From positions 206,362 to 270,361 of the forward strand of contig JABWCG010000001.1 of assembly GCA_013359225.1 (NCBI GenBank): 64,000 nt of DNA, in the 5' to 3' direction. The notes beneath the pieces were generated by a model that was given only the letters and a program-made list of their open reading frames with translations, did not search any database and was not told the origin of the DNA. Below, piece after piece: positions 11,089-52,505 of the stretch. This DNA comes from Candidatus Buchananbacteria bacterium (GTDB lineage Bacteria; Patescibacteriota; Patescibacteriia; Buchananbacterales; UBA6539). How positions within the stretch are numbered: position 1 is the stretch's first letter; every line of letters begins with the position of its first letter. The position numbers and the translations under genes were made by a program.

Positions 11089-11117
11089 TTGACAAATTTG
11101 AGCAATTAGGTTAAAAT
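11089..11117 (+). promoter_or_regulatory. Consensus sigma70 promoter driving the GC-rich lipoprotein gene.
   Basis: TTGACA at 11089-11094, a 17-nt spacer, then TAAAAT at 11112-11117. An approximately 240-nt GC-rich leader follows. Confidence 0.55.
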
Positions 11118-11355
11118 GTGGGACTGGCTCACCATGGGTCCAGTTTGTGTTTGCACCTTATAATTTGGGTTATTGATAACAACGAAAAACGACACCAAAG
11201 GAGTGTCACAACAAGAGGAGATGTGCCTATAAGGAGAGCAGGGAAGCTTTGGCAGGACAAGTGCGTAAGGAACATTTCTTGAGCCGCGCGGCTTGAGAGA
11301 TGAGTGTCGAACAACGTGAAACCGAAACGGAAACGAATGAAGAGGAGTGAAACGA

Positions 11356-14300
11356 ATGAACACGATGGTTCGCAACATGATGGTGTGCGTCATGGCGGCG
11401 CTGGTGGTGCTGTTGACCTCCGGCTGCCCGATGACGCCCGATCCGCCCAACCAGCCGACGCAACCGACGTTCGACGTTCGGACCCGGCTGATTGAAGGCA
11501 AAGCCGAAGTAGTGGTCCGCAACACGGACACGCGACAGGTCAGCATTCAGATTCTGGTCCAGGATGACCGTACCGGCGACTACTTTCCCGCGTACGACGA
11601 AACCGGCGACCAGCTCCTGCGCAGCATCATGCAGCCGGGAGTCCAAACCACCGTAACTGGACAGCTTGTTAACCGCACGTATGAAGGTCACCCCGTGATC
11701 GACATCGGCGGCGGCGGAGTTCACAGTTACTGGTGGTGGGATCCGTATGCGCCGCTGTATCTCTACCCGGTTCCGCCCAGCATAAGCGTGGACTGGGAGA
11801 CATACGTGACTGACGAGGAGATCACCATCACCGAAACGACGTTTGTTGACGGTGAAGGGGCGTACTTGGGCGCACAATTCGTGTTGCCCGAAGCCGGACG
11901 CTACATGGTTCGGGTCACTGGTTTTAACGAGCAGAACGTTGAGTTCAAGCCGTTTGAAACCGTGTTGCCTGACTACGATGGAACAACGCCGGACCCGGAT
12001 CCCGAAGACACCGCCGACCTGGAAGTCCTGTACTTCAGCAATTACGGAGACGTCAACGGGTACGTCTATGGCATCGTCCATGGCGTGAATCCGTCGACCC
12101 ACTCCGTCGCGTGCTACATCAACGTCGACTCAATGTGGTGGCCCAAGCCGGATTTCGGCAACGGCGCCTTGACCCCGTTGGAAAATGGCGGTTACTTTGA
12201 GACCGACATTACCACGGGCGGCGACGATCAGCGCGCAACGTTGATCTACTTGGCTGTGGTGCCAAACGGTACGCAAGTGCCGCAGGCGCCCAGCCTTGAC
12301 CAGCCCTACATTCCGGAAGCGCTCACCAGCAAGCTATTGGTGCGTAATCCCGGACCGGTTGAAGGCGGACCTGGCGTGATTGATTTCACTGAAGTGCCCT
12401 ACTACAAGGATCCTGACGGGGTGCTTCGCGGTACGGTTTCAGGAGTCAATTTCGCTGACTATCAAGTCGCTGTCTACATCCTTGTCGAGGGAGTCTGGTG
12501 GCAAAAGCCGGACTGCACCCTCGTCGACATCATGAGCAATGGTTCCTGGTCGGCTGACGTGACCGTGGTGCCAAGCGACGCGAACGCAACGCAGTTCGCC
12601 GCGTTTCTCGTCCCGCGGGGTACTTCAGTACCCTGCACGGTGTATCCGACCAAGAGCAAATCCTTGGTGGCTGGTATTGATATCCCGGGCGCGGTTGATT
12701 ACGTCATCGTGAACCGGGTACCGCATATCGGCCTGACCAAAATTCCGGCCTACGAAGACACGGTCGGTGACCTGCGCGGTATCGTGGAAGCGCTCGACCC
12801 GACGCAGTACGATATCCATACCTTTATCCGGGTTCCCGGTGAAGGCTGGATTGCGAAGCCGGGCTTTGCGCCTGACGACGCGACGGTTGTTGCCGCTGAC
12901 GGTACGTGGTCGTGTGACATCGTTACCGGATTGCCGGGGCAGACCAACGATCATCGGGCAACTGAGATCTGGGTTTTGCTGTTTGGCAAGGGTGTTGAAG
13001 TAACGCCGTGCGGAGACGCTGTTTGTAGCGACCTGAATATCGACACGGTGGTGAACAACGCCAGTGCTGGGATCTGGGTGAATCGTCGTCCGGGAGCGGA
13101 AGATGAAGAACCTATTATCACCATCATCGGCGCAAACCCGGTCACTTTGGCAGTTGGCAGCGGGCCGTATACCGATTTGGGCGCTACGGCGTTTGATACG
13201 GAAGACGGCGACCTGTCGGCAGAAATCGTTACCACCAATGACGTCAACACGTCGGCGGTGGGAACGTATCACGTGAATTACAGCGTGACGGACAGTGCGA
13301 GCCACACGGTGAACGCTTCCCGAACGGTTCACGTGGTGGATACCGTCGGTCCGGTAATTACCGTTTTGGGCGCAAACCCGCTGCACGTGCAGCAGGGAAG
13401 CGGCCCGTATGTTGATCCAGGCGCCACGGCGTTTGACAACTACAACGGTGACATCACCGGCAGCATTGTGAAGACCGGTTCGGTCGACACGAACACTCCC
13501 GGTACCTACACCATTAACTACAGCGTGCAAGACAGCTCCGGCAACTCTGCCAGCGCTTCGCGCACGGTAGTGGTGGATGAGGTGGTCGAGGATCAACCCC
13601 CGGTCATTACGATCTTGGGGTCAAATCCTCATACCGTCCAAGTCTTGAGCGGCCCGTATCCGGAATCCGGTGCGACCGCCCTTGACCCGGAAGATGGGGA
13701 CATCTCGAACCTGATCGGAACCGTGTCCACGGTGGACATGACGACGATCGGTACGTACAACGTGACCTATTCGGTCACAGACAGCGGCGGCCACCCGGTC
13801 CAAGCGGTGAAAGTCGTTTACGTTGTCGACACGGTGGCGCCGGTTGTTGATCCGATTCCGGACCAGTTCCGTTTGGCGCTGGCATCGGGCGACCTTGATC
13901 TCGGTAACTATGGCTACGACGCGTACGACGAGAACGCGACGTGGTCCATCGTACCCGGATACGACACCAACCTGATTTCGGTGAGCTTGTCGGGAACGAT
14001 CCTGACGATCACCGGGAAAAACGTCGGTGGTACAACCGTACTCACCGTGAAACTGACCGATGGCAGTGGAAATTTCACCACGGCCGACATCAACGTCACG
14101 GTTAGCCCCTGCCAAACGGCATTTATCCAGATTACCGCCGAACCCGGCAGTATTGATGGATTTCCGAATGCGGTGGCCGGCGAAGTGTGCGGCGTCGATC
14201 CGTCAACGCATAAAGTAGTTCTGTACGTTCGCGTGCACGATGCGGTGAGCGGTAACGATTACGCTTGGGTAAAGCCGAACTTCGGGGCCGAGAAATACAC

Positions 14301-14505
14301 GGCCATCAATCCGGACGGCACCTGGGAGTCGTCGGTCGCTCCTGACGCCAATACCTGGAAAGAGGTGCGGGCGTACTTGGTTGAAGATGGTACTTCGATG
14401 CCCGACGCTGGGTCAAGTGGTCCAATGCTGTGGAGCGATTTCCTTGGGTTAAACCTGGAAAACACTTCCGGTGTGCTCGGCCTCGCCTTTGTCACCAACG
14501 GGTGA
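11356..14505 (+). CDS. Large surface lipoprotein with tandem DUF5011-like Ig-fold repeats. The gene is compositionally foreign (GC-rich).
   Basis: The start is ATG 11356, with a GAGGAG RBS 8 nt upstream. The ORF track's GTG at 11347 is too close to the RBS to be the start. The signal peptide has a lipobox 'LLTSGC'. Three tandem ~80-aa repeats of the form 'PVITxxGANPxxxxxGSGPYxDxGATAxDxxDGDxxxxIVxTxxVDTxxxGTYxxNYSVxDSxGN...RTVxVVD' are present. Upstream there are four or more repeats of a ~100-aa module with a conserved 'WW.KPD' motif. Sampled lines are 58-70% GC. Confidence 0.8.
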   Translation: MNTMVRNMMVCVMAALVVLLTSGCPMTPDPPNQPTQPTFDVRTRLIEGKAEVVVRNTDTRQVSIQILVQDDRTGDYFPAYDETGDQLLRSIMQPGVQTTVTGQLVNRTYEGHPVIDIGGGGVHSYWWWDPYAPLYLYPVPPSISVDWETYVTDEEITITETTFVDGEGAYLGAQFVLPEAGRYMVRVTGFNEQNVEFKPFETVLPDYDGTTPDPDPEDTADLEVLYFSNYGDVNGYVYGIVHGVNPSTHSVACYINVDSMWWPKPDFGNGALTPLENGGYFETDITTGGDDQRATLIYLAVVPNGTQVPQAPSLDQPYIPEALTSKLLVRNPGPVEGGPGVIDFTEVPYYKDPDGVLRGTVSGVNFADYQVAVYILVEGVWWQKPDCTLVDIMSNGSWSADVTVVPSDANATQFAAFLVPRGTSVPCTVYPTKSKSLVAGIDIPGAVDYVIVNRVPHIGLTKIPAYEDTVGDLRGIVEALDPTQYDIHTFIRVPGEGWIAKPGFAPDDATVVAADGTWSCDIVTGLPGQTNDHRATEIWVLLFGKGVEVTPCGDAVCSDLNIDTVVNNASAGIWVNRRPGAEDEEPIITIIGANPVTLAVGSGPYTDLGATAFDTEDGDLSAEIVTTNDVNTSAVGTYHVNYSVTDSASHTVNASRTVHVVDTVGPVITVLGANPLHVQQGSGPYVDPGATAFDNYNGDITGSIVKTGSVDTNTPGTYTINYSVQDSSGNSASASRTVVVDEVVEDQPPVITILGSNPHTVQVLSGPYPESGATALDPEDGDISNLIGTVSTVDMTTIGTYNVTYSVTDSGGHPVQAVKVVYVVDTVAPVVDPIPDQFRLALASGDLDLGNYGYDAYDENATWSIVPGYDTNLISVSLSGTILTITGKNVGGTTVLTVKLTDGSGNFTTADINVTVSPCQTAFIQITAEPGSIDGFPNAVAGEVCGVDPSTHKVVLYVRVHDAVSGNDYAWVKPNFGAEKYTAINPDGTWESSVAPDANTWKEVRAYLVEDGTSMPDAGSSGPMLWSDFLGLNLENTSGVLGLAFVTNG

Positions 14506-14550
14506 CAATCAATAACCAAACCAACACTCGACTTTAGGGGAGAGTGACAA

Positions 14551-14601
14551 CGCCCTCGCAAGTACTGTTCAACAAGAACGGGAAAGCGAGGGCTCTTTTT
14601 T
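14551..14601 (+). terminator. Rho-independent terminator of the GC-rich lipoprotein gene.
   Basis: The stem GCCCTCGC (14551-14558) pairs with GCGAGGGC (14585-14592). A T-tract TCTTTTTTT follows. Confidence 0.55.
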
Positions 14602-14647
14602 TAAGTTAATTTTTTAAATCATCTACAACTATTTAAGTCTTTGGGGT

Positions 14648-14741
14648 GTGGGGCGGTATTAAGCCCTAGAACAAATAGTCAAAGTTAGATTGGCGTTAAA
14701 GGCGCATTACCGTCCCACGCTTTTTGGATACTTTTTCTAAA
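14648..14741 (+). other. Structured element of unknown role: a long-range stem plus T-run, followed by a perfect 10-bp palindrome.
   Basis: GTGGGGCGG (14648-14656) pairs with CCGTCCCAC (14710-14718), including one G-U pair. 'GCTTTTTGG' follows. Then comes GATACTTTTT-cta-AAAAAGTATC at 14716-14741. Confidence 0.35.
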
Positions 14742-14833
14742 AAAGTATCGTAAAAAATAGCATAGCTCTAGTTATTTAATCTCGCAGTATTGACAAAAAC
14801 TCTAAAATATGATTTAATTTAAGTGGTAATTAA

Positions 14834-34947: not shown

Positions 34948-35874
34948 CTACTGATTGGCAAAAAATTCAACAATGATGAATATCAGCCAAAACACAAAAA
35001 GAGTATACGCTTCTTTTTTGGAAATCGTTCTTCCAGACCTCATGAACCGAAACAGCGCAAACGACGAAATAACCATAAATATGCCGGTGATGTAGATGAT
35101 TTTTACTGGAAATGAAAACGGATTGATCAGTGCTAGAATGCCCACGACGATCGTGGCGTCAGCCAGTACGGTGCCCAGGATGTCACCGATTGCTAAAGAG
35201 TCGTCGCGTTTGCGGACTGATTTGAGAGAAAAAAACAGTTCTGGCATTGTTGTGCCGATTCCAACAACCAACATGCCGACCAGGATCGGACTGACACCTA
35301 AGTAGCGCGCCAGTTGGCTAGCGGAGTCTACGGTAAAGTGAGAACCAACTAGCAGTATTATCATACTAAACACCAGCATGATAATACTTTTTTTGTTGGC
35401 CTGGCTATTAGAGGCTGCTTTGCTTTCAGCGCCTCTTTTAAATGAAATGTAATAAAATATGCCACCGGCAATAACTAGTGCTAGACCTTCTAGCCGGGAA
35501 AAGTGTCCGTCAAAACCAAGAATTAACGGCAAAAGCAACAAGAACGGATAGGTTGAATGATTTTTTAAGATTTTACTTTCAACCTTAAGGCCGCGGCCGG
35601 CGACCCAAATAATAATGGCAAAGATTAAAGTCAGGTCGGCAATATTTGAACCAAACAACATGCCGAGTCCGAAAGAGGGTATACCCGCCAGCGCGGCATT
35701 GATTGAAATAAAGGTTTCCGGAAGAATTGAAATAATCGCCACGACAATAAAACCAACTGTATATTTTGAAAGATGAAAATTACTTGCCACCATTGCCGCA
35801 TATTTTGTGGCTAAGGTTGAGCCCCGGATAACTAAGAACAGAGAAACGATAAAAATAAATAGGGTGTTAATCAT
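34948..35874 (-). CDS. Ca2+/cation antiporter (CaCA/YrbG family) membrane protein.
   Basis: Two alpha-repeat regions ('GSNIADL' and 'AIGDILGTVLADAT') sit in a polytopic membrane protein. Confidence 0.75.
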   Translation of the reverse strand: MINTLFIFIVSLFLVIRGSTLATKYAAMVASNFHLSKYTVGFIVVAIISILPETFISINAALAGIPSFGLGMLFGSNIADLTLIFAIIIWVAGRGLKVESKILKNHSTYPFLLLLPLILGFDGHFSRLEGLALVIAGGIFYYISFKRGAESKAASNSQANKKSIIMLVFSMIILLVGSHFTVDSASQLARYLGVSPILVGMLVVGIGTTMPELFFSLKSVRKRDDSLAIGDILGTVLADATIVVGILALINPFSFPVKIIYITGIFMVISSFALFRFMRSGRTISKKEAYTLFVFWLIFIIVEFFANQ

Positions 35875-35990
35875 ATTAATCTAGTATAGCAAAAAAATAT
35901 TCATCCGGCGATTTTGGACGTGAAACGACCCCGAAGTCTTAAGCAGACATCCGGGGTCGTGGGGGTTGAGACGCTAGGGAGTCTTACTCT

Positions 35991-36344
35991 CTAGCACTCG
36001 TGGGGAGCCGGCAAGAACTTGCCGTGTCTCCACTGTTGGCACCAGGCGATGATAATCGTCGGCGCCGCAAACGCGAAGTGAAGGAACGTAAGGGCAACGA
36101 GGTTGCCCAGGTTGTGGCTGTTACCCGCGAGCCAACCGCGGCGGTGGGTGATGGCACCAGCGATGATGCCCCAGCCAACCTGCGAAACGAGGATGATGAG
36201 CATACCCAGGCCCATCATTTCCGGGGCGAAGATTTCCTTCCCCCAGAACTGCTCGCTCGTGAGCCCGACGCCGACGGCGACGAATGCCGTGAGGTAGGCG
36301 AGCATGAACACGTCGAACAGCGCTGCCGCGATAAGCTTTCTCAT
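35991..36344 (-). CDS. GC-rich (foreign-composition) small membrane protein of 117 aa.
   Basis: An AGGAG RBS lies about 8 nt upstream of the ATG at 36342-36344. Three to four hydrophobic helices are predicted. The sampled line 36121-36180 is about 68% GC. Confidence 0.6.
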   Translation of the reverse strand: MRKLIAAALFDVFMLAYLTAFVAVGVGLTSEQFWGKEIFAPEMMGLGMLIILVSQVGWGIIAGAITHRRGWLAGNSHNLGNLVALTFLHFAFAAPTIIIAWCQQWRHGKFLPAPHEC

Positions 36345-36443
36345 CTGATTTTGCTCCTGATTTCGCCGGATTGCTCAAACTTGAGATTTCCCAAGTTGGA
36401 AGGACCACCCTTCCAATAATCCAGCATTTTCAAAGATAAATAT

Positions 36444-36472
36444 ATTATAACATATAATATAAAAAATGTCAA
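36444..36472 (-). promoter_or_regulatory. Perfect consensus sigma70 promoter on the minus strand, embedded in a 12-bp inverted repeat, driving the GC-rich membrane-protein gene.
   Basis: The minus strand reads TTGACA (36467-36472), a 17-nt spacer, then TATAAT (36444-36449). The surrounding sequence is AAAAAATGTCAA-N6-TTGACATTTTTT. Confidence 0.55.
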
Positions 36473-36502
36473 TACATTTTGACATTTTTTCGCTTATTTT
36501 AT

Positions 36503-36537
36503 TAAAAAACCGCCACGAAAGGCGGTTTTTATTTTTT
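36503..36537. terminator. Bidirectional Rho-independent terminator.
   Basis: The sequence is AAAAAACCGCC-acgaaa-GGCGGTTTTTATTTTTT. Confidence 0.8.
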
Positions 36538-36558
36538 AAATCAAAAACTAATTAAGTA

Positions 36559-36957
36559 TTATTCAGTGGTTTTACCGTCAAAATGTTCCTGTTCGTCGGC
36601 TTGGGCATCTTGCTTAGTTTTGTGGATAACGCCATCACGATGGTTGGGCGGCGAATATAGGGTGTAAAGTTTGAGCGGTTGGTTTGAAGAGGTGTTGATA
36701 ATGTTATGTTTGGCGCCGGATGGGACCACAATAATAAATCCATCGCTAAGCTCATGTTCAACTCCGTCTAAAACGGCTTTACCCTGGCCGGACTCACAGC
36801 GAATGAACTGGTCTAGCTGGTGAATTTCTTCGCCGATATCTTCATTGGGATTTAAGCTCATCACAACCAGCTGGCTGTTTTTGCTGGTGTACAGCACTTG
36901 TCTGAAATTTTTATTTTCCAGGCTCAGTTTTTCAATATTAGTGACGTAGCCTTTCAT
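36559..36957 (-). CDS. Cupin-domain protein.
   Basis: The two-His cupin motifs 'EDIGEEIHQLDQFIRCESGQG' and 'GAKHNIINTS' are present. Confidence 0.7.
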   Translation of the reverse strand: MKGYVTNIEKLSLENKNFRQVLYTSKNSQLVVMSLNPNEDIGEEIHQLDQFIRCESGQGKAVLDGVEHELSDGFIIVVPSGAKHNIINTSSNQPLKLYTLYSPPNHRDGVIHKTKQDAQADEQEHFDGKTTE

Positions 36958-44340: not shown

Positions 44341-44415
44341 TGGTAGCGCCACGGGGAATCGAACCCCGGTTACATGGATGAGAACCATGCGTCCTAGCCG
44401 CTAGACGATGGCGCC
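44341..44415 (-). tRNA. tRNA-Glu(CUC).
   Basis: The reverse complement folds as a cloverleaf with anticodon loop TTCTCAT, T-loop GGTTCGATTCC and an encoded CCA. A minus-strand TTGACT-17-TATTAT promoter lies upstream. Confidence 0.85.
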
Positions 44416-48056: not shown

Positions 48057-49835
48057 TTGCTTCTTTTATTTTTTATGATTAAAACAAACACGAAAAAAAC
48101 TTTTAGATACTATTTTAAAGCCGCCCGAAACCATGTCGCGCTCGGGCTGGTTATGTTTGGTTCAATTATCGCTGCCCGGGTGATTGATCTGATTACGCCG
48201 CTTTATTTGCGGGACTTTTTTAACGTCTTGTCGGGCAGTAGTCCGACTGAGGCCGTGGTTAAAACTCTGATTGATATTTTGATTATTATTTCGGTTTTGA
48301 AGTTTGTGGAATGGCTGATTTGGCGTGTTGCCAATCATGCCGACAGTACCTTTACTTCACGGGTAGCGTTTGATTTAGGTAACATGTGTTTTGCCTATTT
48401 GCATAAGCACTCTTTTGCGTATTTCAATAATAATTTTGTCGGCTCAATGGTGAAGCGCGTCAAGTGGTTTGTCAAAGCTTTTGAAACAATTACCGACCGG
48501 TTCGCCTGGAGCCTATTCCCGCTGTTTGTTGATATTGCAGTGATTTCCGGCGTGTTGTTTTATACCAATTTTTGGCTTGGTTTCGGGGTTTTTGCCTGGA
48601 CGGTGCTTTTTTTGGCCATCAACTGGGCGTTTACTAAATATAAATTGAAATACGACATTGCCCGAAGCGAGGCGGAAACAGTAACAACCAGGGTGTTAGC
48701 CGATACGATTACTAATAGCGCCAACGTGAAACTGTTTAATGGTTACCAGCGCGAGGTCAAGCTTTTCTCGCAGGTGCTTAAGGATTTCACCGATAAACGC
48801 CTCTGGGCGTGGACGCTGGGTAATATTATTGAGGCGGTGCAGGGCTTTTTGATGACCATATTGGAAGTTGGCATTATGTTTTTGGCGGTGTGGTTGTGGC
48901 AGCAGGGCAAGATTACGATTGGCGACTTTATCTTAATCCAGACCTATTTGATTTCAATTTTCATGCGAACCTGGGAGTTTGGCCGGGTAGTGCGAACGAT
49001 CTATGAAAACTTGGCAGACGCCGAAGAAATGACGGTGGTGCTAGAAACGCCGCACGAAATTATAGACGTGCCCGGCGCTAAAAAAATCAAGATTAATCGC
49101 GGTGAAATTAAGTTTCAGAATGTCAGTTTCAATTACCACGAAACCCGAAAATTGCTGGTGAAATTAAACCTTACTGTTGCACCCGGCGAGCGTCTGGCGT
49201 TAGTTGGGCCGTCTGGTGCGGGCAAAACAACTATCACCAAATTATTGTTGCGGATGCATGACTTAACCGGCGGTGTTATCACGATTGATGGCCAGGACAT
49301 TTCCAAGGTTACCCAGGAAAGTTTATGGGCAAATGTTAGTTTGGTGCCGCAAGAACCCGTGTTATTTCATCGGACGTTAATGGAAAATATCCGATATGGC
49401 AAACCAAACGCCACGGATAAAGAAGTTATGGCTTCAGCCAAAGCGGCCAACTGTCATGATTTTATCACCCGGTTTCCGGATGGTTACAATACGTATGTTG
49501 GCGAGCGGGGAGTAAAGCTTTCCGGCGGCGAACGCCAGCGCGTAGCAATCGCCCGGGCGATTTTGCGTAATGCGCCAATTTTAGTCTTAGATGAGGCAAC
49601 TTCAAGTCTGGATTCAGCATCAGAACGCTTGATTCAAGAAGCACTTGATAAGCTGATGAAAGACAAGACGGTCATTGTAATTGCACACCGGCTTTCAACG
49701 ATTCGCAAAATGGATCGCGTGATTGTTATGGACCGTAAAGGTATTGTGGAAGAGGGAACTCACGATGAATTAACCGCCAAAAAAGACGGGCTTTATCAAA
49801 AATTGTGGCAACTTCAGGCCGGGGGGTTTATCTAA
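48057..49835 (+). CDS. ABC exporter with a fused transmembrane domain and ATPase (MsbA-like).
   Basis: A six-helix transmembrane domain is followed by 'GPSGAGKTT', 'LSGGERQR' and 'LVLDEATS'. A terminator at 49863-49910 follows. Confidence 0.85.
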   Translation: MLLLFFMIKTNTKKTFRYYFKAARNHVALGLVMFGSIIAARVIDLITPLYLRDFFNVLSGSSPTEAVVKTLIDILIIISVLKFVEWLIWRVANHADSTFTSRVAFDLGNMCFAYLHKHSFAYFNNNFVGSMVKRVKWFVKAFETITDRFAWSLFPLFVDIAVISGVLFYTNFWLGFGVFAWTVLFLAINWAFTKYKLKYDIARSEAETVTTRVLADTITNSANVKLFNGYQREVKLFSQVLKDFTDKRLWAWTLGNIIEAVQGFLMTILEVGIMFLAVWLWQQGKITIGDFILIQTYLISIFMRTWEFGRVVRTIYENLADAEEMTVVLETPHEIIDVPGAKKIKINRGEIKFQNVSFNYHETRKLLVKLNLTVAPGERLALVGPSGAGKTTITKLLLRMHDLTGGVITIDGQDISKVTQESLWANVSLVPQEPVLFHRTLMENIRYGKPNATDKEVMASAKAANCHDFITRFPDGYNTYVGERGVKLSGGERQRVAIARAILRNAPILVLDEATSSLDSASERLIQEALDKLMKDKTVIVIAHRLSTIRKMDRVIVMDRKGIVEEGTHDELTAKKDGLYQKLWQLQAGGFI

Positions 49836-50063
49836 CTTAAAAATTTTGTTATAATTTAGTTAATGAGAAAACGCCTTCTCAATTGTTTGCGTTTTCTTTT
49901 TATTTTATCTAATTTGAGCCAAATTTTGCTTCACGTGAAACAAAAGATTTTGTGTGATATTTTTAATTAACTATTTTTCTCATAAATCTAGTCTTGAATA
50001 AATTTCTGCCAGTAACTTTTGGTGAAATCTCAAAAAACATCATTTTTTATCTAAATTAAGCTA

Positions 50064-50109
50064 AAATATAGTCATTAAAATTGACTATATTTTATTTTTA
50101 TGGTATAAT
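50064..50109 (+). promoter_or_regulatory. Promoter with a palindromic operator for the GC-rich 156-aa gene.
   Basis: A perfect 11-bp inverted repeat AAATATAGTCA-N7-TGACTATATTT (50064-50092) overlaps the -35 TTGACT (50081-50086). After a 17-nt spacer comes the extended -10 TGgTATAAT (50101-50109). Confidence 0.5.
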
Positions 50110-50212
50110 AATAGTTATGAAGTCTGCAGAAGGGAAAAATCCCTTTTGGCCCTGATATTTCGGGGTAATTTCACAGACTTTACGCTCGTGTTCCAACTTA
50201 TGGAGGCAGGAC

Positions 50213-50683
50213 ATGTTTTTCAGGGTCAATCTGGCAACGTTGGAGGTGGAACGGTTGAATGTTCGTAACCTCTCGGAAGTTCCGGGGGTTAAGAGCAACG
50301 GCCAGCACTACCAGCTCGAAGGTTTCGCCCTCGTTGAGGTGCGAACCCCAAGCTGCGAGATGCTGCTGTTTCATCCGGAAACCCAGTCCAGCAGCGGTCA
50401 CATCGACGTGACCTATCGGCCGCAGCGGCACGACGGTGCCTACGGGGTGGACATGCAGATGTACACTCATGGCTGCGAATTGGACTTCGCCAACGACCAC
50501 TCCTTCCAGTATCACTGGCCGTCGGGTCAGTGGCATCTCTTGATGGCGATCGACGCCATCGAGCAGTTCCTGAAGCAGGAAATCGGCTACACGCCGCACC
50601 TGCGCGAGTACATCGGCCACACCTTCCGGCCCACCCCGCCCAAGCTCGCGAACCTTGAGCCTGGTGAATCGGCCGCCGCCTAA
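50213..50683 (+). CDS. GC-rich (foreign-composition) hypothetical protein of 156 aa.
   Basis: A GGAGG RBS sits 6 nt upstream of the ATG. A strong terminator follows. The sampled line 50401-50460 is about 65% GC. No motif was recognised. Confidence 0.6.
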   Translation: MFFRVNLATLEVERLNVRNLSEVPGVKSNGQHYQLEGFALVEVRTPSCEMLLFHPETQSSSGHIDVTYRPQRHDGAYGVDMQMYTHGCELDFANDHSFQYHWPSGQWHLLMAIDAIEQFLKQEIGYTPHLREYIGHTFRPTPPKLANLEPGESAAA

Positions 50684-50707
50684 TCTAGGCACGGCGGCAA
50701 GCCCCAC

Positions 50708-50752
50708 GAAGCGCTCGTCTCACTCCCAGAGATCGAGCGCTTCTTTCTTTTG
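50708..50752 (+). terminator. Rho-independent terminator.
   Basis: A perfect 10-bp stem GAAGCGCTCG/CGAGCGCTTC has a 16-nt loop and is followed by TTTCTTTT. Confidence 0.85.
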
Positions 50753-50816
50753 GTTTTATTTACAAATTAGAAAAAAAGTGCCATACTTAAACTAGAAAAA
50801 TTAACCTAATTATCAG

Positions 50817-52505
50817 ATGAAAATACTCAAATCAAAGCTATTTTGGTTAGCTCTTGTTGTCGTTATCGCCGTCGGCGGTTTTGTTTTTGTAAAACTTGGC
50901 AGTCAAAAGCCAACTGTGGAATACCAGACTGAAGAAGTTAAACAGGGTCTTTTGGTACAGACCGTTTCTGCGACCGGACAGGTTAAGTCGGCACAAGATA
51001 TTGAACTTAACTTTAAAAATACCGGCCGGCTGAGTGTTTTAAATGTTAAAACCGGAGATAAAGTCACCAAAGATCAGGTCTTGGCTCAGCTGCGTTCAAC
51101 GGATTTGGCGATTAATGTCAGCAAGGCGCGTGCCAGTCTTGACGAGGCGGTCGCAAACTTAAATCGCGTTAAAGCCGGCGCTACTACTGAAGACATTGCC
51201 GTTTATGAAGCGGCGGTAAAAAAAGCGGAAACTGATTATTATAATGCCCAGACTGAGCTTGAGAGTACTAAGGAAACCTATAGTCAGGCTTCAGAAAATG
51301 AACGTCAGAGCGCTTTAGTGGATATTAGTGGTGCGCTGACCAAGGCTAATATTTCGCTGCAAAAGGTTTATGACACCTTGAACTACAAAGGTAACGCGAA
51401 CAATTTTAACACTTCAAATTTCACGTTCCATCAGCAGGTCCAAAACGAATACACCAATTCAGTTTCGGCGGTTGATGAGGCGGAACTAGCATATGGAACC
51501 GCAAAACTTGATGCTACACCCGAAAAAGTGAACGAAGCTGTTCAGAAAGTATTGGCGGCGCTAACCGACACATTGGCCACTGTTAGCGATTTATCAAGTT
51601 TGCTTGATGATGTAATTACCAACAGTAATTTGACTCAAACAGAACTTGATGCCTTAAAAACAACCATTAATACCGAGCGGACAACTACCAACGCCAGCCT
51701 GAGCACTATTCAAAGCGCCAATCAGGATTTGATTGATGCCAGCCTTAATTACCAGACTAAGGTTCAGACGGCGGAAAATAACGTCAGCACCACTCAAAAA
51801 ACATTAGCGAAGGCTGAGGCTGACTTAGCTTTGCGCAAAGCGCCGGCCCGTCCGGAAGACGTGGCGCTGTATCAGGCACAGGTTAACCGCGCCCGAGCCG
51901 ATCTCCAATTGGCTCAGGAGCGATATGATGAAACAATTATCAAGGCTCCGATTGACGGCGTAGTTACCGATGTGAACTATAGTATCGGTGAGCAGACCAG
52001 CCTGAGTGAACCGGTGATCATGATGTTAGCGGCGGAGAATTATCAGATTGAAGTTGATATTCCTGAATCAGATATCGTGAAGATTAATGTCGGCGACGAT
52101 GCTAATATTACGTTAGATGCTTTTAGTTTTGAAGAAATTTTTAACGGCACGGTCACTACAATCAACCCAGCCCAAACAGAAATCCAGGATGTAATTTATT
52201 ACCGGGTAACTGTAACATTTACCGATAGCCAGCCAGAAAACGTTGCTGCTTTAATGGAAAAGATTAAGCCTGGTATGACCGCTAACATTGATATTAACAC
52301 CGACCGACGACAAGATGTTGTTATTGCACCGCAGCGTGCTATTAAGGATGACGCCGGCGTTAAATATGCTGAAATTTTAGAGGCCGGCGTGCCAAAGCGT
52401 GTTGAGGTAACACTCGGCGTTCGCGGCGATGACGGCCTGATCGAAGTTATTAGCGGGTTGATGCCTGGTCAACAGGTTATCACGTTTGTTCGCAACGGCA
52501 AGTAA
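50817..52505 (+). CDS. HlyD/MacA-like efflux periplasmic adaptor with a long coiled coil.
   Basis: An N-terminal transmembrane anchor, a biotinyl/lipoyl-like 'VKTGDKVTKDQVLAQL' and a very long central coiled coil are present. Confidence 0.7.
   Translation: MKILKSKLFWLALVVVIAVGGFVFVKLGSQKPTVEYQTEEVKQGLLVQTVSATGQVKSAQDIELNFKNTGRLSVLNVKTGDKVTKDQVLAQLRSTDLAINVSKARASLDEAVANLNRVKAGATTEDIAVYEAAVKKAETDYYNAQTELESTKETYSQASENERQSALVDISGALTKANISLQKVYDTLNYKGNANNFNTSNFTFHQQVQNEYTNSVSAVDEAELAYGTAKLDATPEKVNEAVQKVLAALTDTLATVSDLSSLLDDVITNSNLTQTELDALKTTINTERTTTNASLSTIQSANQDLIDASLNYQTKVQTAENNVSTTQKTLAKAEADLALRKAPARPEDVALYQAQVNRARADLQLAQERYDETIIKAPIDGVVTDVNYSIGEQTSLSEPVIMMLAAENYQIEVDIPESDIVKINVGDDANITLDAFSFEEIFNGTVTTINPAQTEIQDVIYYRVTVTFTDSQPENVAALMEKIKPGMTANIDINTDRRQDVVIAPQRAIKDDAGVKYAEILEAGVPKRVEVTLGVRGDDGLIEVISGLMPGQQVITFVRNGK

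What the first reader, a model, noticed from the sequence alone, without database searches (positions are those of the whole stretch)
50064..50752. A GC-rich cassette for a 156-aa unknown protein with a palindromic operator over the -35 box, an extended -10 and a perfect terminator
The ORF 50213-50683 is about 65% GC in the sampled line and is flanked by very AT-rich DNA. It has a GGAGG RBS 6 nt from the ATG and a 10-bp perfect-stem terminator at 50708-50752.

The promoter is TTGACT at 50081-50086, a 17-nt spacer, then TGgTATAAT at 50101-50109. Its -35 hexamer is the right arm of a perfect 11-bp inverted repeat AAATATAGTCA-N7-TGACTATATTT at 50064-50092. That is the architecture of a repressor operator occluding a promoter.

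A 12-codon mini-ORF (ATG at 50117, encoding MKSAEGKNPFWP*) lies in the leader. The antisense 169-aa ORF at 50198-50707 is almost certainly a GC-rich artefact. The protein has no motif I recognise, so function is open. It could be an immunity or effector-like protein.
Basis: seen in the sequence. Interest (0 to 1): 0.7.

Follow-up and report, generated by a model that had tools for sequence, protein, structure and literature searches.

The report
GC-rich gene cassette with structured leader
The flagged stretch is a real, self-contained gene unit in an uncultured Candidatus Buchananbacteria genome: its "mini-ORF" is really a conserved folded RNA leader shared with other GC-rich genes, and its protein belongs to an undescribed family whose function is still unknown.

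Summary
The organism is a Candidatus Buchananbacteria MAG (window GC 0.42).

- **The gene is real and on the + strand.** GC3 is 0.79 against GC2 0.38. A profile search finds about 53 related proteins with no Pfam, NCBIfam, PHROG or PADLOC match. A confident AlphaFold model (pLDDT 93) has no PDB or viral structural neighbour.
- **The mini-ORF is not the point.** It lies inside a 65-nt three-way-junction RNA at 50118-50182. This RNA is absent from Rfam.
- **The RNA recurs.** It precedes three different cargo genes in four contigs, including a second module in this window (about 36484-35925, minus strand).
- **Covariation supports the fold.** Over six instances, 98% of cells pair and 14 of 25 pairs change on both sides.
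- **The unit is portable.** The roughly 735-bp unit (about 50018-50752) sits in a different neighbourhood in another contig. A different GC-rich module occupies the same ABC/HlyD locus in a relative.
- **The palindrome is a plausible operator.** Its arms are invariant in three copies while the spacer varies. No regulator or regulon was found.

Still unknown: the protein's function, what the RNA senses, and why GC3 stays near 0.7-0.8 in diverged copies. The "immunity/effector" idea has no support.

The parts
50018..50062 (+). Left edge of the conserved module. It holds an upstream A/T-rich element with CTAAATTAAG at 50051-50060 (the perfect palindrome CTAAATTTAG in L001, L011 and L017).
   Evidence: Homology among the window, L001 and L011 begins here, although L011 has different flanking genes. 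The element is also shared with the L017 module.
50063..50093 (.). Inverted repeat AAAATATAGTCA-N7-TGACTATATTTT with 12-bp arms. The right arm contains the -35 hexamer. It is a candidate operator.
   Evidence: I2. The arms are 100% identical in the window, L001 and L011, while the spacer varies at 2 of 7 positions. No cognate regulator was identified.
50081..50109 (+). Sigma-70-type promoter: TTGACT, 17 nt, then TGgTATAAT (extended -10). The predicted transcription start is near 50116-50117.
   Evidence: 11/12 plus TG. It is conserved in L001 and L011. The start site is inferred from spacing only.
50117..50155 (+). 12-codon 'mini-ORF' (MKSAEGKNPFWP*). It overlaps P1-P3 of the leader RNA and is probably not a functional coding unit.
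   Evidence: L011 has the TGA at the same place but encodes a different peptide (MKSGEGENLFSL*), and L001 has CGA there and reads on. The differences between copies keep the RNA helices paired. The conserved GGAGGCAGGAC block is read in different frames in the window and L001 (my reading of the sequences, aligned).
50118..50182 (+). Three-way-junction leader RNA. P1 is 50118-50126 with 50174-50182. P2 is 50127-50135 with 50140-50148. P3 is 50149-50155 with 50160-50166. The J3/1 linker is 50167-50173.
   Evidence: The minimum-free-energy fold has z = -3.9, and L001, L011 and L017 fold the same way. Rfam has no match.
50191..50206 (+). A small hairpin, UUCCA (50191-50195) with UGGAG (50201-50205), that partly sequesters the GGAGG Shine-Dalgarno sequence (50202-50206).
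   Evidence: UUCCAA and GGAGG are conserved in all three copies. The hairpin is weak at 4-5 bp, and a regulatory role is inferred.
50213..50683 (+). Cargo gene 1: a 156-aa protein (HUU49_01415, hypothetical) from an uncharacterised alpha+beta family. Near-invariant residues are N29, H32, G37, L52, H54, T57, G62, H63, D65, W102, P103, G105, L109 and E117.
   Evidence: Codon periodicity and third-position substitutions are. The family of 55 hits is, and the alignment. The AlphaFold model has pLDDT 93.4. There is no Pfam, NCBIfam, PHROG, PADLOC or PDB sequence hit and no fold match.
50198..50707 (-). Antisense 169-aa ORF, a by-product of GC3-rich codon usage.
   Evidence: It is in the exact-overlap frame and is also open in L001 and L011. 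Antisense identity is lower than sense identity. No antisense promoter was found.
50708..50752 (+). Intrinsic terminator: GAAGCGCTCG...CGAGCGCTTC plus a T-rich tail. This is the right edge of the conserved module.
   Evidence: I17. The stem is identical in L001 and L011 and near-identical in L016. Homology to L011 ends just after it.
36443..36484 (-). Module B promoter: TTGACA (36472-36467), 17 nt, then TGtTATAAT (36452-36444). The -35 is again the right arm of an inverted repeat (TGTCAA-N6-TTGACA, 36467-36484).
   Evidence: This region also matches the promoter of the second L011 module.
36366..36424 (-). Module B leader: a second instance of the three-way-junction RNA.
   Evidence: The fold has z = -2.7. 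With model R2 and filters off it is the best non-self hit in the whole window, at 22 bits and E = 0.002.
35991..36344 (-). Cargo gene 2: a 117-aa hydrophobic protein with apparently about three membrane-spanning segments (judged from the sequence; no prediction was run). GC is 0.61 and GC3 is 0.82.
   Evidence: It is 42% identical (E = 2e-32) to the cargo of the L017 module. There is no Pfam hit.
35925..35960 (-). Module B terminator-like hairpin, ACGACCCCGG...TCGGGGTCGT, with a weak T-tail.
   Evidence: Read directly. It was not scored by a tool.

Best explanation
The finding is one copy (about 50018-50752) of a portable, self-contained single-gene expression module found in Candidatus Buchananbacteria-like genomes.

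**How it most likely works**
1. Transcription starts from a near-consensus sigma-70-type promoter with an extended -10. An unidentified dimeric regulator may occlude the -35 by binding the palindrome.
2. The first 65 nt or so of the transcript fold into a three-way junction. The fold is conserved and the folded RNA is the functional unit of the leader, not the 12-codon ORF embedded in it.
3. This RNA most likely acts in cis on mRNA stability or translation. A short UUCC stretch downstream can pair with the Shine-Dalgarno sequence.
4. The GC-rich ORF is translated on the + strand. Its product is a small cytoplasmic alpha+beta protein from an undescribed family. The conserved His, Asp and Glu residues suggest a metal site.
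5. Transcription ends at a strong intrinsic terminator.

The same promoter, leader and terminator design carries at least two other cargo genes. One is a 117-aa membrane protein, also present in this window. Modules sit at variable places between housekeeping genes, so they behave like 'moron'-type accessory cassettes that are exchanged or replaced.

**Shown:** the anatomy, the coding strand, the protein family, the RNA fold with covariation, its recurrence before different cargos, and the different genomic contexts.

**Inferred:** the transcription start, repression at the palindrome, what the RNA does, the protein's function, and the route of mobility.
For: **Anatomy.**

**Organism.** Candidatus Buchananbacteria MAG.

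**Coding on the + strand.**
- GC3 is 0.79 against GC2 0.38, and differences by codon position are 55/38/75.
- dN/dS is about 0.3.
- The profile search finds 55 hits at E <= 1e-3, 37 of them at E <= 1e-10.
- The AlphaFold model built on the 54-sequence alignment has pLDDT 93.4 and pTM 0.86.

**Leader fold.**
- The fold is identical in the window, L001, L011 and L017, with z from -2.2 to -4.3.
- A model built from three copies finds L017 (E = 6e-7) and a second L011 site (E = 4e-5).
- The rebuilt model ranks window 36366-36424 as the best non-self hit in 64 kb (E = 0.002).
- Over six instances, 98% of cells pair and 14 of 25 pairs (26 cells) change on both sides. No shuffle out of 500 reaches this, and the slid controls give at most 3.
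- The P1 helix of L017 has an entirely different sequence but still pairs.

**Not a coding leader.** The TGA is present in two of three copies, the peptide is not conserved, and the conserved GGAGGCAGGAC block is read in different frames.

**Portability.**
- L011 carries the module between unrelated flanks, and homology is limited to 50018-50751.
- L017 has a cargo-2 module in the opposite orientation at the same ABC/HlyD locus.
- L019 has no module upstream of its HlyD ortholog, and no ABC-transporter gene is adjacent there.
- L016 has a diverged cargo-1 end with the same terminator.

**Palindrome.** The arms are invariant and the spacer varies.
Against: - There is no expression data, so the transcription start, strand usage and RNA function are inferred.
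- There are only six leader instances from closely related genomes. The pair counts were made on alignments fitted to the model, which favours the structure.
- The second L011 instance does not recover P1 as its minimum-free-energy fold (z = -1.25).
- Pattern scans of the genome, metagenome and viral collections found no further copies of the leader. Those scans required exact conservation of P2.
- No regulator gene lies nearby. Similar inverted repeats elsewhere in the window are mostly inside genes, and the L017 module lacks the palindrome. Its operator role is therefore weakly supported.
- No empty ABC/HlyD site was recovered, so insertion is inferred from variable content rather than from a clean before-and-after pair.
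- No mobility gene or target-site duplication was seen.
Confidence: 0.6

Rival explanations
1. Plain recent horizontal transfer. An ordinary gene from a GC-rich donor landed here, and the promoter palindrome and leader hairpins are incidental or merely a generic 5' stabiliser.
For: The GC3 outlier is about 5 sd. The gene is a stand-alone unit between housekeeping genes. P1 begins 1-2 nt from the predicted 5' end, as 5'-terminal stabilising stem-loops do (from my own knowledge of ompA- and ermC-type stabilisers).
Against: - The copies have diverged (dS about 0.7-1.2, 56-58% amino-acid identity) but all keep GC3 at 0.69-0.79 in genomes of 0.34-0.42 GC.
- No close homologue from a GC-rich organism was found. 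The only two named members are CPR bacteria (Buchananbacteria and Vogelbacteria).
- The leader fold is kept through compensatory changes and recurs before unrelated cargos.
- The non-coding flanks (84-94% identical) are more conserved than the ORF (67%).
Confidence: 0.15
2. The leader is translated. Either the 12-codon ORF is a leaderless regulatory peptide starting at the transcript's first base, or the true product is a longer protein made by reading through TGA 50153-50155, as in the 185-aa call for L001.
For: - An ATG lies exactly 7 nt after the -10 in the window, L001, L011 and L017.
- The mini-ORF is in frame with the main ORF in the window (96 nt), L001 and L011 (93 nt each).
- L001 has CGA instead of TGA and was called as 185 aa.
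Against: - The peptide is not conserved: MKSAEGKNPFWP in the window, MKSGEGENLFSL in L011 and MNTKIW in L017.
- Module B and the second L011 module have no ATG at that position.
- The four differences between the window and L001 in the P3 region all preserve the hairpin.
- GGAGGCAGGAC is conserved as nucleotides but is read in different frames.
- Other genes in the window are long intact ORFs under the standard code, so TGA is a stop here.
Confidence: 0.1
3. The three-way junction is specifically a riboswitch aptamer, sensing a small molecule or ion and controlling a functionally linked set of cargo genes. This is a sharper version of the best explanation.
For: The fold is compact and conserved with covariation. 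It lies in the 5' UTR of at least three different cargo genes, one a small membrane protein and one with a possible metal site. A possible Shine-Dalgarno-sequestering element lies downstream.
Against: - Few unpaired nucleotides are conserved. J3/1 varies in both length and sequence (AAUUUCA, GGAUUAACC, UUGA), and the loops vary.
- No clear mutually exclusive expression platform is visible.
- The cargo functions are unknown, so no ligand can be proposed.
- Rfam has no related class.
Confidence: 0.25
4. The cassette encodes an immunity, anti-defence or effector-type protein under diversifying pressure.
For: - The cargo evolves faster than its neighbour. dN is 0.37 against 0.14 for HlyD in the same genome pair, and cargo 2 has 0.52 against 0.24.
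- The C-terminus in L016 is strongly diverged although its HlyD is 80% identical.
- The gene behaves as accessory, with variable locations and presence or absence between relatives.
Against: - dN/dS is about 0.3, which indicates purifying rather than diversifying selection.
- No toxin or partner gene is adjacent in any of the nine contexts.
- There are no PADLOC, PHROG or Pfam hits and no phage homologues.
- The conserved His, Asp and Glu pattern looks more like a catalytic or metal site than a binding-interface protein.
Confidence: 0.1
5. The GC-rich segment is a structured non-coding RNA, or the antisense ORF is the real (or a second, overlapping) gene.
For: - GC-rich islands in AT-rich genomes often mark structured RNAs (from my own knowledge).
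- The antisense frame is open over its full length in all five cargo genes. A simple third-position model gives P(no stop) of 0.015-0.36 per gene.
- Synonymous divergence is lower than in the neighbour gene: pS is 0.55-0.61 against 0.74-0.80.
Against: - The + frame shows strong three-base periodicity and an excess of third-position substitutions.
- The one indel within the ORF is 6 nt, so the reading frame is kept.
- There is a protein family of about 53 clusters and a pLDDT-93 model.
- Antisense identity is lower than sense identity in every pair.
- Antisense start codons are not conserved, and no antisense promoter was found.
- The open antisense frame is the one expected to lack stops when TTA, CTA and TCA codons are avoided.
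Confidence: 0.05

Closest known systems
Phage 'morons' (autonomous promoter-ORF-terminator units of deviant composition inserted between conserved genes; Hendrix/Juhala concept, cited from my own knowledge)
   Same: - It is a single ORF flanked by its own sigma-70-type promoter and intrinsic terminator.
- Its base composition is strongly different from the surrounding genes.
- It sits between genes that have other or no content between them in relatives.
- The same unit is found in a different neighbourhood elsewhere.
   Different: - It lies among chromosomal housekeeping genes (QueA, ABC exporter, HlyD-like adaptor, FtsW/RodA, L25), not in a prophage.
- Neither cargo has a phage homologue.
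- The modules share a conserved structured 5' leader, which is not part of the moron definition.
Cis-regulatory 5'-UTR RNAs with three-way junctions, such as purine-type riboswitch aptamers, and orphan riboswitch candidates
   Same: It is a compact P1/P2/P3 junction of about 65 nt at the start of mRNAs. The fold is kept through compensatory substitutions and recurs upstream of several genes.
   Different: - It matches none of the 4227 Rfam families.
- The helices stack without linkers at two of the three junction strands.
- The junction and loops are poorly conserved.
- No ligand or coherent gene function is evident, and no clear terminator or anti-terminator switch is present.
Repressor operators overlapping the -35 (classical promoter occlusion)
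   Same: It is a perfect inverted repeat whose right arm contains the -35 hexamer. The arms are invariant and the spacer is free to vary among copies.
   Different: No cognate DNA-binding protein was identified nearby. There is no clear set of further sites. The sister module in L017 lacks the repeat. In module B the repeat is TGTCAA-N6-TTGACA, so it may instead be a mirrored -35 element.
Integron gene cassettes
   Same: They are small, exchangeable single-gene units carrying diverse cargo, sometimes in tandem (two modules lie head-to-tail in L011).
   Different: Each module here has its own promoter and terminator. No attC-like 3' recombination site is shared by all modules. The orientations differ, the modules are dispersed, and no integrase was seen.

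Membership tests
Any Rfam family (for the leader RNA) | A score at or above the family's gathering threshold, or at least a consistent sub-threshold match across instances | tested here: not met
   No match was found over any leader at E <= 10 (window 49700-51000) or at E <= 1 (L001, L011, L017 and window 35800-36600). A gathering-threshold scan of the whole window gives only two tRNAs.
Riboswitch (generic definition) | A conserved structured aptamer supported by covariation | tested here: met
   Over six instances, 98% of cells pair and 14 of 25 pairs change on both sides. No shuffle out of 500 reaches this, and the slid controls give at most 3. The alignment was fitted to the model, so it leans towards the structure.
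Riboswitch (generic definition) | Highly conserved unpaired nucleotides forming a ligand pocket | tested here: inconclusive
   J3/1 and the loops vary in sequence and length among the six instances. The conserved positions are mostly within helices (GAAG/CUU in P2, C..GA/UC..G in P3).
Riboswitch (generic definition) | An expression platform with mutually exclusive pairing | tested here: inconclusive
   Only a weak 4-5 bp UUCCA/UGGAG hairpin over the Shine-Dalgarno sequence was seen. No competing alternative to P1 was demonstrated.
Riboswitch (generic definition) | Direct, specific ligand binding | not testable with these tools
   This needs in-line probing, ITC or reporter assays.
Phage moron | Its own promoter and factor-independent terminator flanking a single ORF | tested here: met
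   with conservation shown.
Phage moron | Base composition unlike that of the neighbouring genes | tested here: met
   GC3 is 0.79 against a mean of 0.426 (sd 0.073) for other ORFs in the window.
Phage moron | Inserted between genes that are adjacent in related genomes | tested here: inconclusive
   The ABC/HlyD interval holds cargo 1 in the window, L001 and L016. In L017 it holds cargo 2 plus a methyltransferase. L019 has neither module. No clean empty site with adjacent ABC and HlyD genes was recovered.
Phage moron | Resides in a phage or prophage genome | tested here: not met
   The neighbours are housekeeping genes. tblastn of both cargos against 50,697 phage records gave no match. Viral contig scans for the leader and operator were empty.
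Repressor operator | Dyad symmetry overlapping a core promoter element, with conserved arms and a variable spacer | tested here: met
Repressor operator | An identifiable cognate DNA-binding protein or further regulon sites | tested here: not met
   No DNA-binding repressor-type domain was found in the ten neighbouring proteins scanned. AGTCA-N7-TGACT occurs 5 times against 0.87 expected, but three of the four other sites lie inside genes. TGTCA-N8-TGACA is not enriched.
Known protein families (Pfam, NCBIfam, PHROGs, PADLOC, PDB) | A significant profile or fold match for the 156-aa protein or its family | tested here: not met
   - There are no hits for the protein.
- None of the 54 family members has a Pfam hit better than E = 0.025.
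- The best PDB profile match has E = 0.88.
- The AFDB library was unavailable.
Integron cassette | A promoterless ORF followed by an attC site, in an array next to intI | tested here: not met
   The modules carry their own promoters and terminators. They are dispersed and lie in both orientations (50118 on +, 36424 on -). I did not run a dedicated intI search.

The most novel reading that the evidence does not exclude
The 65-nt three-way junction is a new class of cis-regulatory RNA, either a riboswitch or a protein-binding leader. It defines a regulon of portable, GC-rich accessory genes specific to the Candidate Phyla Radiation. Their high GC3 is actively maintained rather than left over from transfer, for example by repeated exchange with a GC-rich extrachromosomal pool or by selection on the mRNA. 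The 156-aa cargo would then represent a new protein fold with a His/Asp/Glu metal site.
Probability: 0.3. Interest if true: 0.8.

Novelty: new variant of a known kind. Interest (0 to 1): 0.62.

Why it matters
Candidate Phyla Radiation bacteria are uncultured and have tiny genomes, and almost nothing is known about how they regulate genes.

- **A testable regulatory signal.** A structured leader that is conserved, shows covariation, and is shared by several accessory genes would be one of the few candidate regulatory RNAs specific to this group. The signal it senses could be tested directly.
- **A protein family to characterise.** The cargo family has about 53 clusters, no annotation and no structural neighbour among solved or viral structures, yet it gives a confident model with a conserved His/Asp/Glu constellation. 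That makes it a well-defined target for structural and biochemical work.
- **A compositional puzzle.** GC3 stays at about 0.7-0.8 in diverged copies inside genomes of about 40% GC. A single transfer event does not explain this, which suggests an unrecognised gene pool or selective force in these organisms.

Tried and rejected
1. **Wasted scan.** My first genome-collection scan used a pattern with one N too few and found nothing.
2. **Corrected leader pattern.** It gave only chance matches inside unrelated GC-rich coding DNA: 2 in the genome collection and 3 in metagenomes. The viral scans for the leader and the operator were empty. These scans required P2 to be exactly conserved, so they cannot find diverged instances.
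3. **Shallow structure model.** AlphaFold with only two sequences gave pLDDT 47.6 and was unusable. The 54-sequence alignment fixed this.
5. **Locus search.** The search for related loci with the family alignment failed because it had no sufficiently conserved stretch.
6. **A false lead.** The window has a second GC-rich 1052-aa gene, and L010 has a 1052-aa gene next to a family member. The two proteins are unrelated.
7. **Operator regulon.** It is not supported.
8. **Nearby regulator.** None was found.
9. **Phage origin.** tblastn gave no matches.
10. **Motif reach.** Model R2 does not find the motif upstream of more distant family members. Those genes have other structured leaders behind similar consensus promoters.
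11. **Literature.** Searches found nothing on such motifs or GC-rich genes in Patescibacteria or Buchananbacteria.
12. **Recoding of TGA.** I considered code 4, code 25 and selenocysteine and rejected them. Other genes are intact under code 11, and L001 has Arg (CGA) at that position rather than Cys.
Full report
**1. Observation**

- The inverted repeat lies at 50064-50092. It actually has 12-bp arms, 50063-50074 and 50082-50093.
- The promoter is TTGACT (50081-50086), 17 nt, then TGgTATAAT (50101-50109). It scores 11/12 plus the TG.
- GGAGG (50202-50206) lies 6 nt before the ATG at 50213.
- The 156-aa ORF ends at 50683.
- A perfect 10-bp terminator stem (50708-50717 with 50734-50743) is followed by a T-run.
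- The 12-codon ORF is at 50117-50155, and the antisense 169-aa ORF at 50198-50707.

The ORF has GC 0.594 and GC3 0.79, against 0.419 for the window. That GC3 is about 5 sd above the other 55 long ORFs. The protein is annotated as hypothetical protein HUU49_01415 of a Candidatus Buchananbacteria MAG. The neighbours are an MsbA-like ABC exporter and a HlyD/MacA-like adaptor. Further out are QueA, FtsW/RodA, a NUDIX protein, an Rnk/GreA-like protein and ribosomal protein L25.

**2. The gene is real and on the + strand**

- The + frame has GC1/GC2/GC3 of 0.61/0.38/0.79.
- Against the syntenic copy in L001, differences by codon position are 55/38/75.
- The one indel within the ORF is 6 nt, so the frame is kept.
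- dN/dS is about 0.3.

The antisense ORF is in the exact-overlap frame, where stop codons require the sense codons TTA, CTA or TCA. It is open in all copies. Antisense amino-acid identity is lower than sense identity in every pair (44% against 58%, and 58% against 77%). No antisense promoter was found.

One caveat remains. A simple third-position model gives P(no antisense stop) of 0.015-0.36 per gene, so overlapping coding is unlikely rather than excluded.

**3. The protein**

The word-indexed search found only one relative. The exhaustive profile search then found 55 hits at E <= 1e-3, 53 of them genuine small proteins of 63-239 aa, mostly 130-170.

- Near-invariant positions are N29, H32, G37, L52, H54, T57, G62, H63, D65, W102, P103, G105, L109 and E117. 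That pattern is compatible with a metal or catalytic site, which is an inference.
- No member matches Pfam. The window protein matches nothing in NCBIfam, PHROGs or PADLOC.
- The PDB sequence profile search is empty.
- With the 54-sequence alignment, AlphaFold gives pLDDT 93.4 and pTM 0.86. The model is a beta-sheet followed by C-terminal helices.

The only two named members are from Buchananbacteria and Vogelbacteria. In all nine contexts examined the gene stands alone, with no conserved partner. In the seven whose upstream DNA I checked, it sits behind a near-consensus TTGACA/TTGACT, 17-18 nt, TATAAT-like promoter, and five of those have the extended -10 TG. In all nine it is GC-richer than its contig, by 0.04 to 0.22.

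**4. The leader is an RNA, not a mini-ORF**

Positions 50118-50182 fold into a three-way junction (P1, P2, P3) with z = -3.9. L001, L011 and L017 fold the same way. Four observations argue against a coding role:
- Every difference between the window and L001 in P3 preserves pairing (C-G to U-A, and U.G to C-G).
- L011 adds C-G to G-C and A-U to G-C in P2.
- The peptide is not conserved (MKSAEGKNPFWP*, MKSGEGENLFSL*, or fused in L001). The TGA is present in two of three copies.
- The conserved GGAGGCAGGAC block is read in different frames in the window and L001.

The 185-aa call for L001 is therefore an over-extension.

**5. The motif recurs before other cargo**

- A covariance model built from the three close copies found L017 2845-2911 (E = 6e-7) and a second site in L011, 1622-1689 (E = 4e-5).
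- The L017 site sits behind a similar upstream element and promoter. It precedes a GC-rich 117-aa hydrophobic protein at the same ABC/HlyD locus, in the opposite orientation.
- The second L011 site belongs to a tandem module with another cargo.
- A BLAST link from L011's second promoter led to window 36438-36473, next to a GC-rich island.
- That region is a complete second module: TTGACA, 17 nt, TGtTATAAT; a three-way-junction leader (z = -2.7); a 117-aa cargo; and a terminator-like hairpin. The cargo is 42% identical to the L017 cargo and has GC3 0.82.
- The rebuilt model, run with filters off, ranks this leader as the best non-self hit in the 64-kb window (22 bits, E = 0.002).

Over six instances, 98% of cells pair and 14 of 25 pairs (26 cells) change on both sides. 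No shuffle out of 500 reaches these values, and the slid-register controls give 0-3. Two caveats apply: the alignments are fitted to the model, and the sequences are related. Rfam has nothing similar.

**6. Portability and evolution**

- Homology among the window, L001 and L011 is confined to about 50018-50752. L011 has different genes on both sides.
- L016, whose HlyD is 80% identical, has the same terminator but a strongly diverged cargo C-terminus.
- L019 has no module.
- Between the window and L001, identity is 94% for the promoter and palindrome, 85% for the leader, 84% for the 3' UTR and terminator, and only 67% for the ORF.
- Cargo dN is 2 to 2.6 times that of the neighbouring HlyD gene.
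- GC3 stays at 0.69-0.82 in all copies of both cargos although dS is about 0.7-1.2. A single recent transfer does not explain that.

**7. The palindrome**

Both 12-bp arms are identical in the three cargo-1 copies, while the spacer varies. That fits an operator. Against this, no regulator gene is nearby. Related repeats elsewhere in the window are few, and three of the four other AGTCA-N7-TGACT sites lie inside genes. The L017 module lacks the repeat. Module B has TGTCAA-N6-TTGACA, again with the -35 as the right arm. The operator reading stands as plausible but unproven.

**8. Verdict**

The finding is one of a set of moron-like, self-contained expression modules in Buchananbacteria-like genomes. 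The modules share a previously undescribed three-way-junction 5' leader and carry GC-rich accessory genes of unknown function. The immunity/effector suggestion is unsupported.

The closest known things are:
- **Phage morons.** The anatomy and deviant composition match, but this is not in a phage.
- **Three-way-junction cis-regulatory RNAs.** The architecture matches, but this belongs to no known family.
- **-35-occluding operators.**

I rate this as a new variant of a known kind, with moderate-to-high interest. The RNA motif and the protein family are both new and testable, but no function could be established.

Noticed in passing
window 35925-36484 (minus strand): A second complete module of the same design. 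It has a consensus promoter with an extended -10 whose -35 lies in an inverted repeat, a three-way-junction leader (36366-36424), a GC-rich (GC3 0.82) 117-aa hydrophobic protein gene (35991-36344) and a terminator-like hairpin. It sits directly upstream of a Na/Ca-exchanger gene.
   Followed up: yes
window 14614-14749; L011 529-666: A non-coding element of about 137 nt is 85% identical between the window and L011, in opposite orientation. In the window it follows the terminator of the GC-rich 1052-aa gene. In L011 it lies about 160 nt upstream of the cassette. It has a long-range stem with a U-A to C-G compensatory change and a GATACTTTTT..AAAAAGTATC palindrome. No Rfam family matches it. It may be a small RNA or an intergenic repeat.
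   Followed up: partly
window 11090-14600: Another strongly GC-rich gene (11347-14505, 1052 aa, GC 0.58, GC3 0.70) encodes a surface protein with Bact_surface_Ig-like domains. It has its own TTGACA-17-TAAAAT promoter, a leader of about 230 nt and a terminator. The leader is not of the three-way-junction type.
   Followed up: partly
L011 1585-1790: A second module lies in tandem, directly after the first cassette's terminator. It has the promoter TTGACA..TATAAT, a leader matching the RNA model (1622-1689) and a new ORF starting MKAGRESFFYLDPRSLKVRAQA, cut by the contig end. In this instance P1 is not the minimum-free-energy fold.
   Followed up: partly
L012 5789-6489 (Candidatus Vogelbacteria); window 44341-44415: The Vogelbacteria family member (GC 0.589 against 0.414) lies about 140 nt from a tRNA-Glu(CTC) gene and next to a 569-aa gene with a faint resolvase hit, which suggests an integrated element. 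Its -35 TTGACT is also the right arm of an AGTCA..TGACT inverted repeat. The window has a tRNA-Glu(CTC) 5.7 kb upstream of the cassette.
   Followed up: no
window 50669-50683 and family members P0003, P0009, P0014; L016 1-91: Several family members end in Ala-rich tails (ESAAA, ETAAA, EQAAA, EEAAA, AVAA). These resemble the C-terminal Ala-Ala determinant of ssrA-type degradation tags. That resemblance is from my own knowledge and was not tested.
   Followed up: no
window 50198-50707 (-), 36000-36419 (+); L001 82-648 (-); L011 969-1505 (-): In four of the five cargo genes the ORF listings show a long antisense ORF in the exact-overlap frame, and none of the five contains a TTA, CTA or TCA codon. 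A simple third-position model gives P(no stop) of 0.18, 0.015, 0.064, 0.36 and 0.28. Synonymous divergence of the cargos is lower than in the neighbouring HlyD gene.
   Followed up: partly
L017 2329-4000: In this relative (its HlyD is 68% identical), the interval between the ABC exporter and HlyD holds the cargo-2 module plus a SAM-methyltransferase gene. The interval is therefore a variable hot spot.
   Followed up: partly
window 12444, 16899, 27875, 3511, 50070: AGTCA-N7-TGACT with up to one mismatch occurs 5 times against 0.87 expected (no shuffle out of 100 reaches 5). Three of the four other sites lie inside coding regions and one (16899) is intergenic. Its meaning is unclear.
   Followed up: partly
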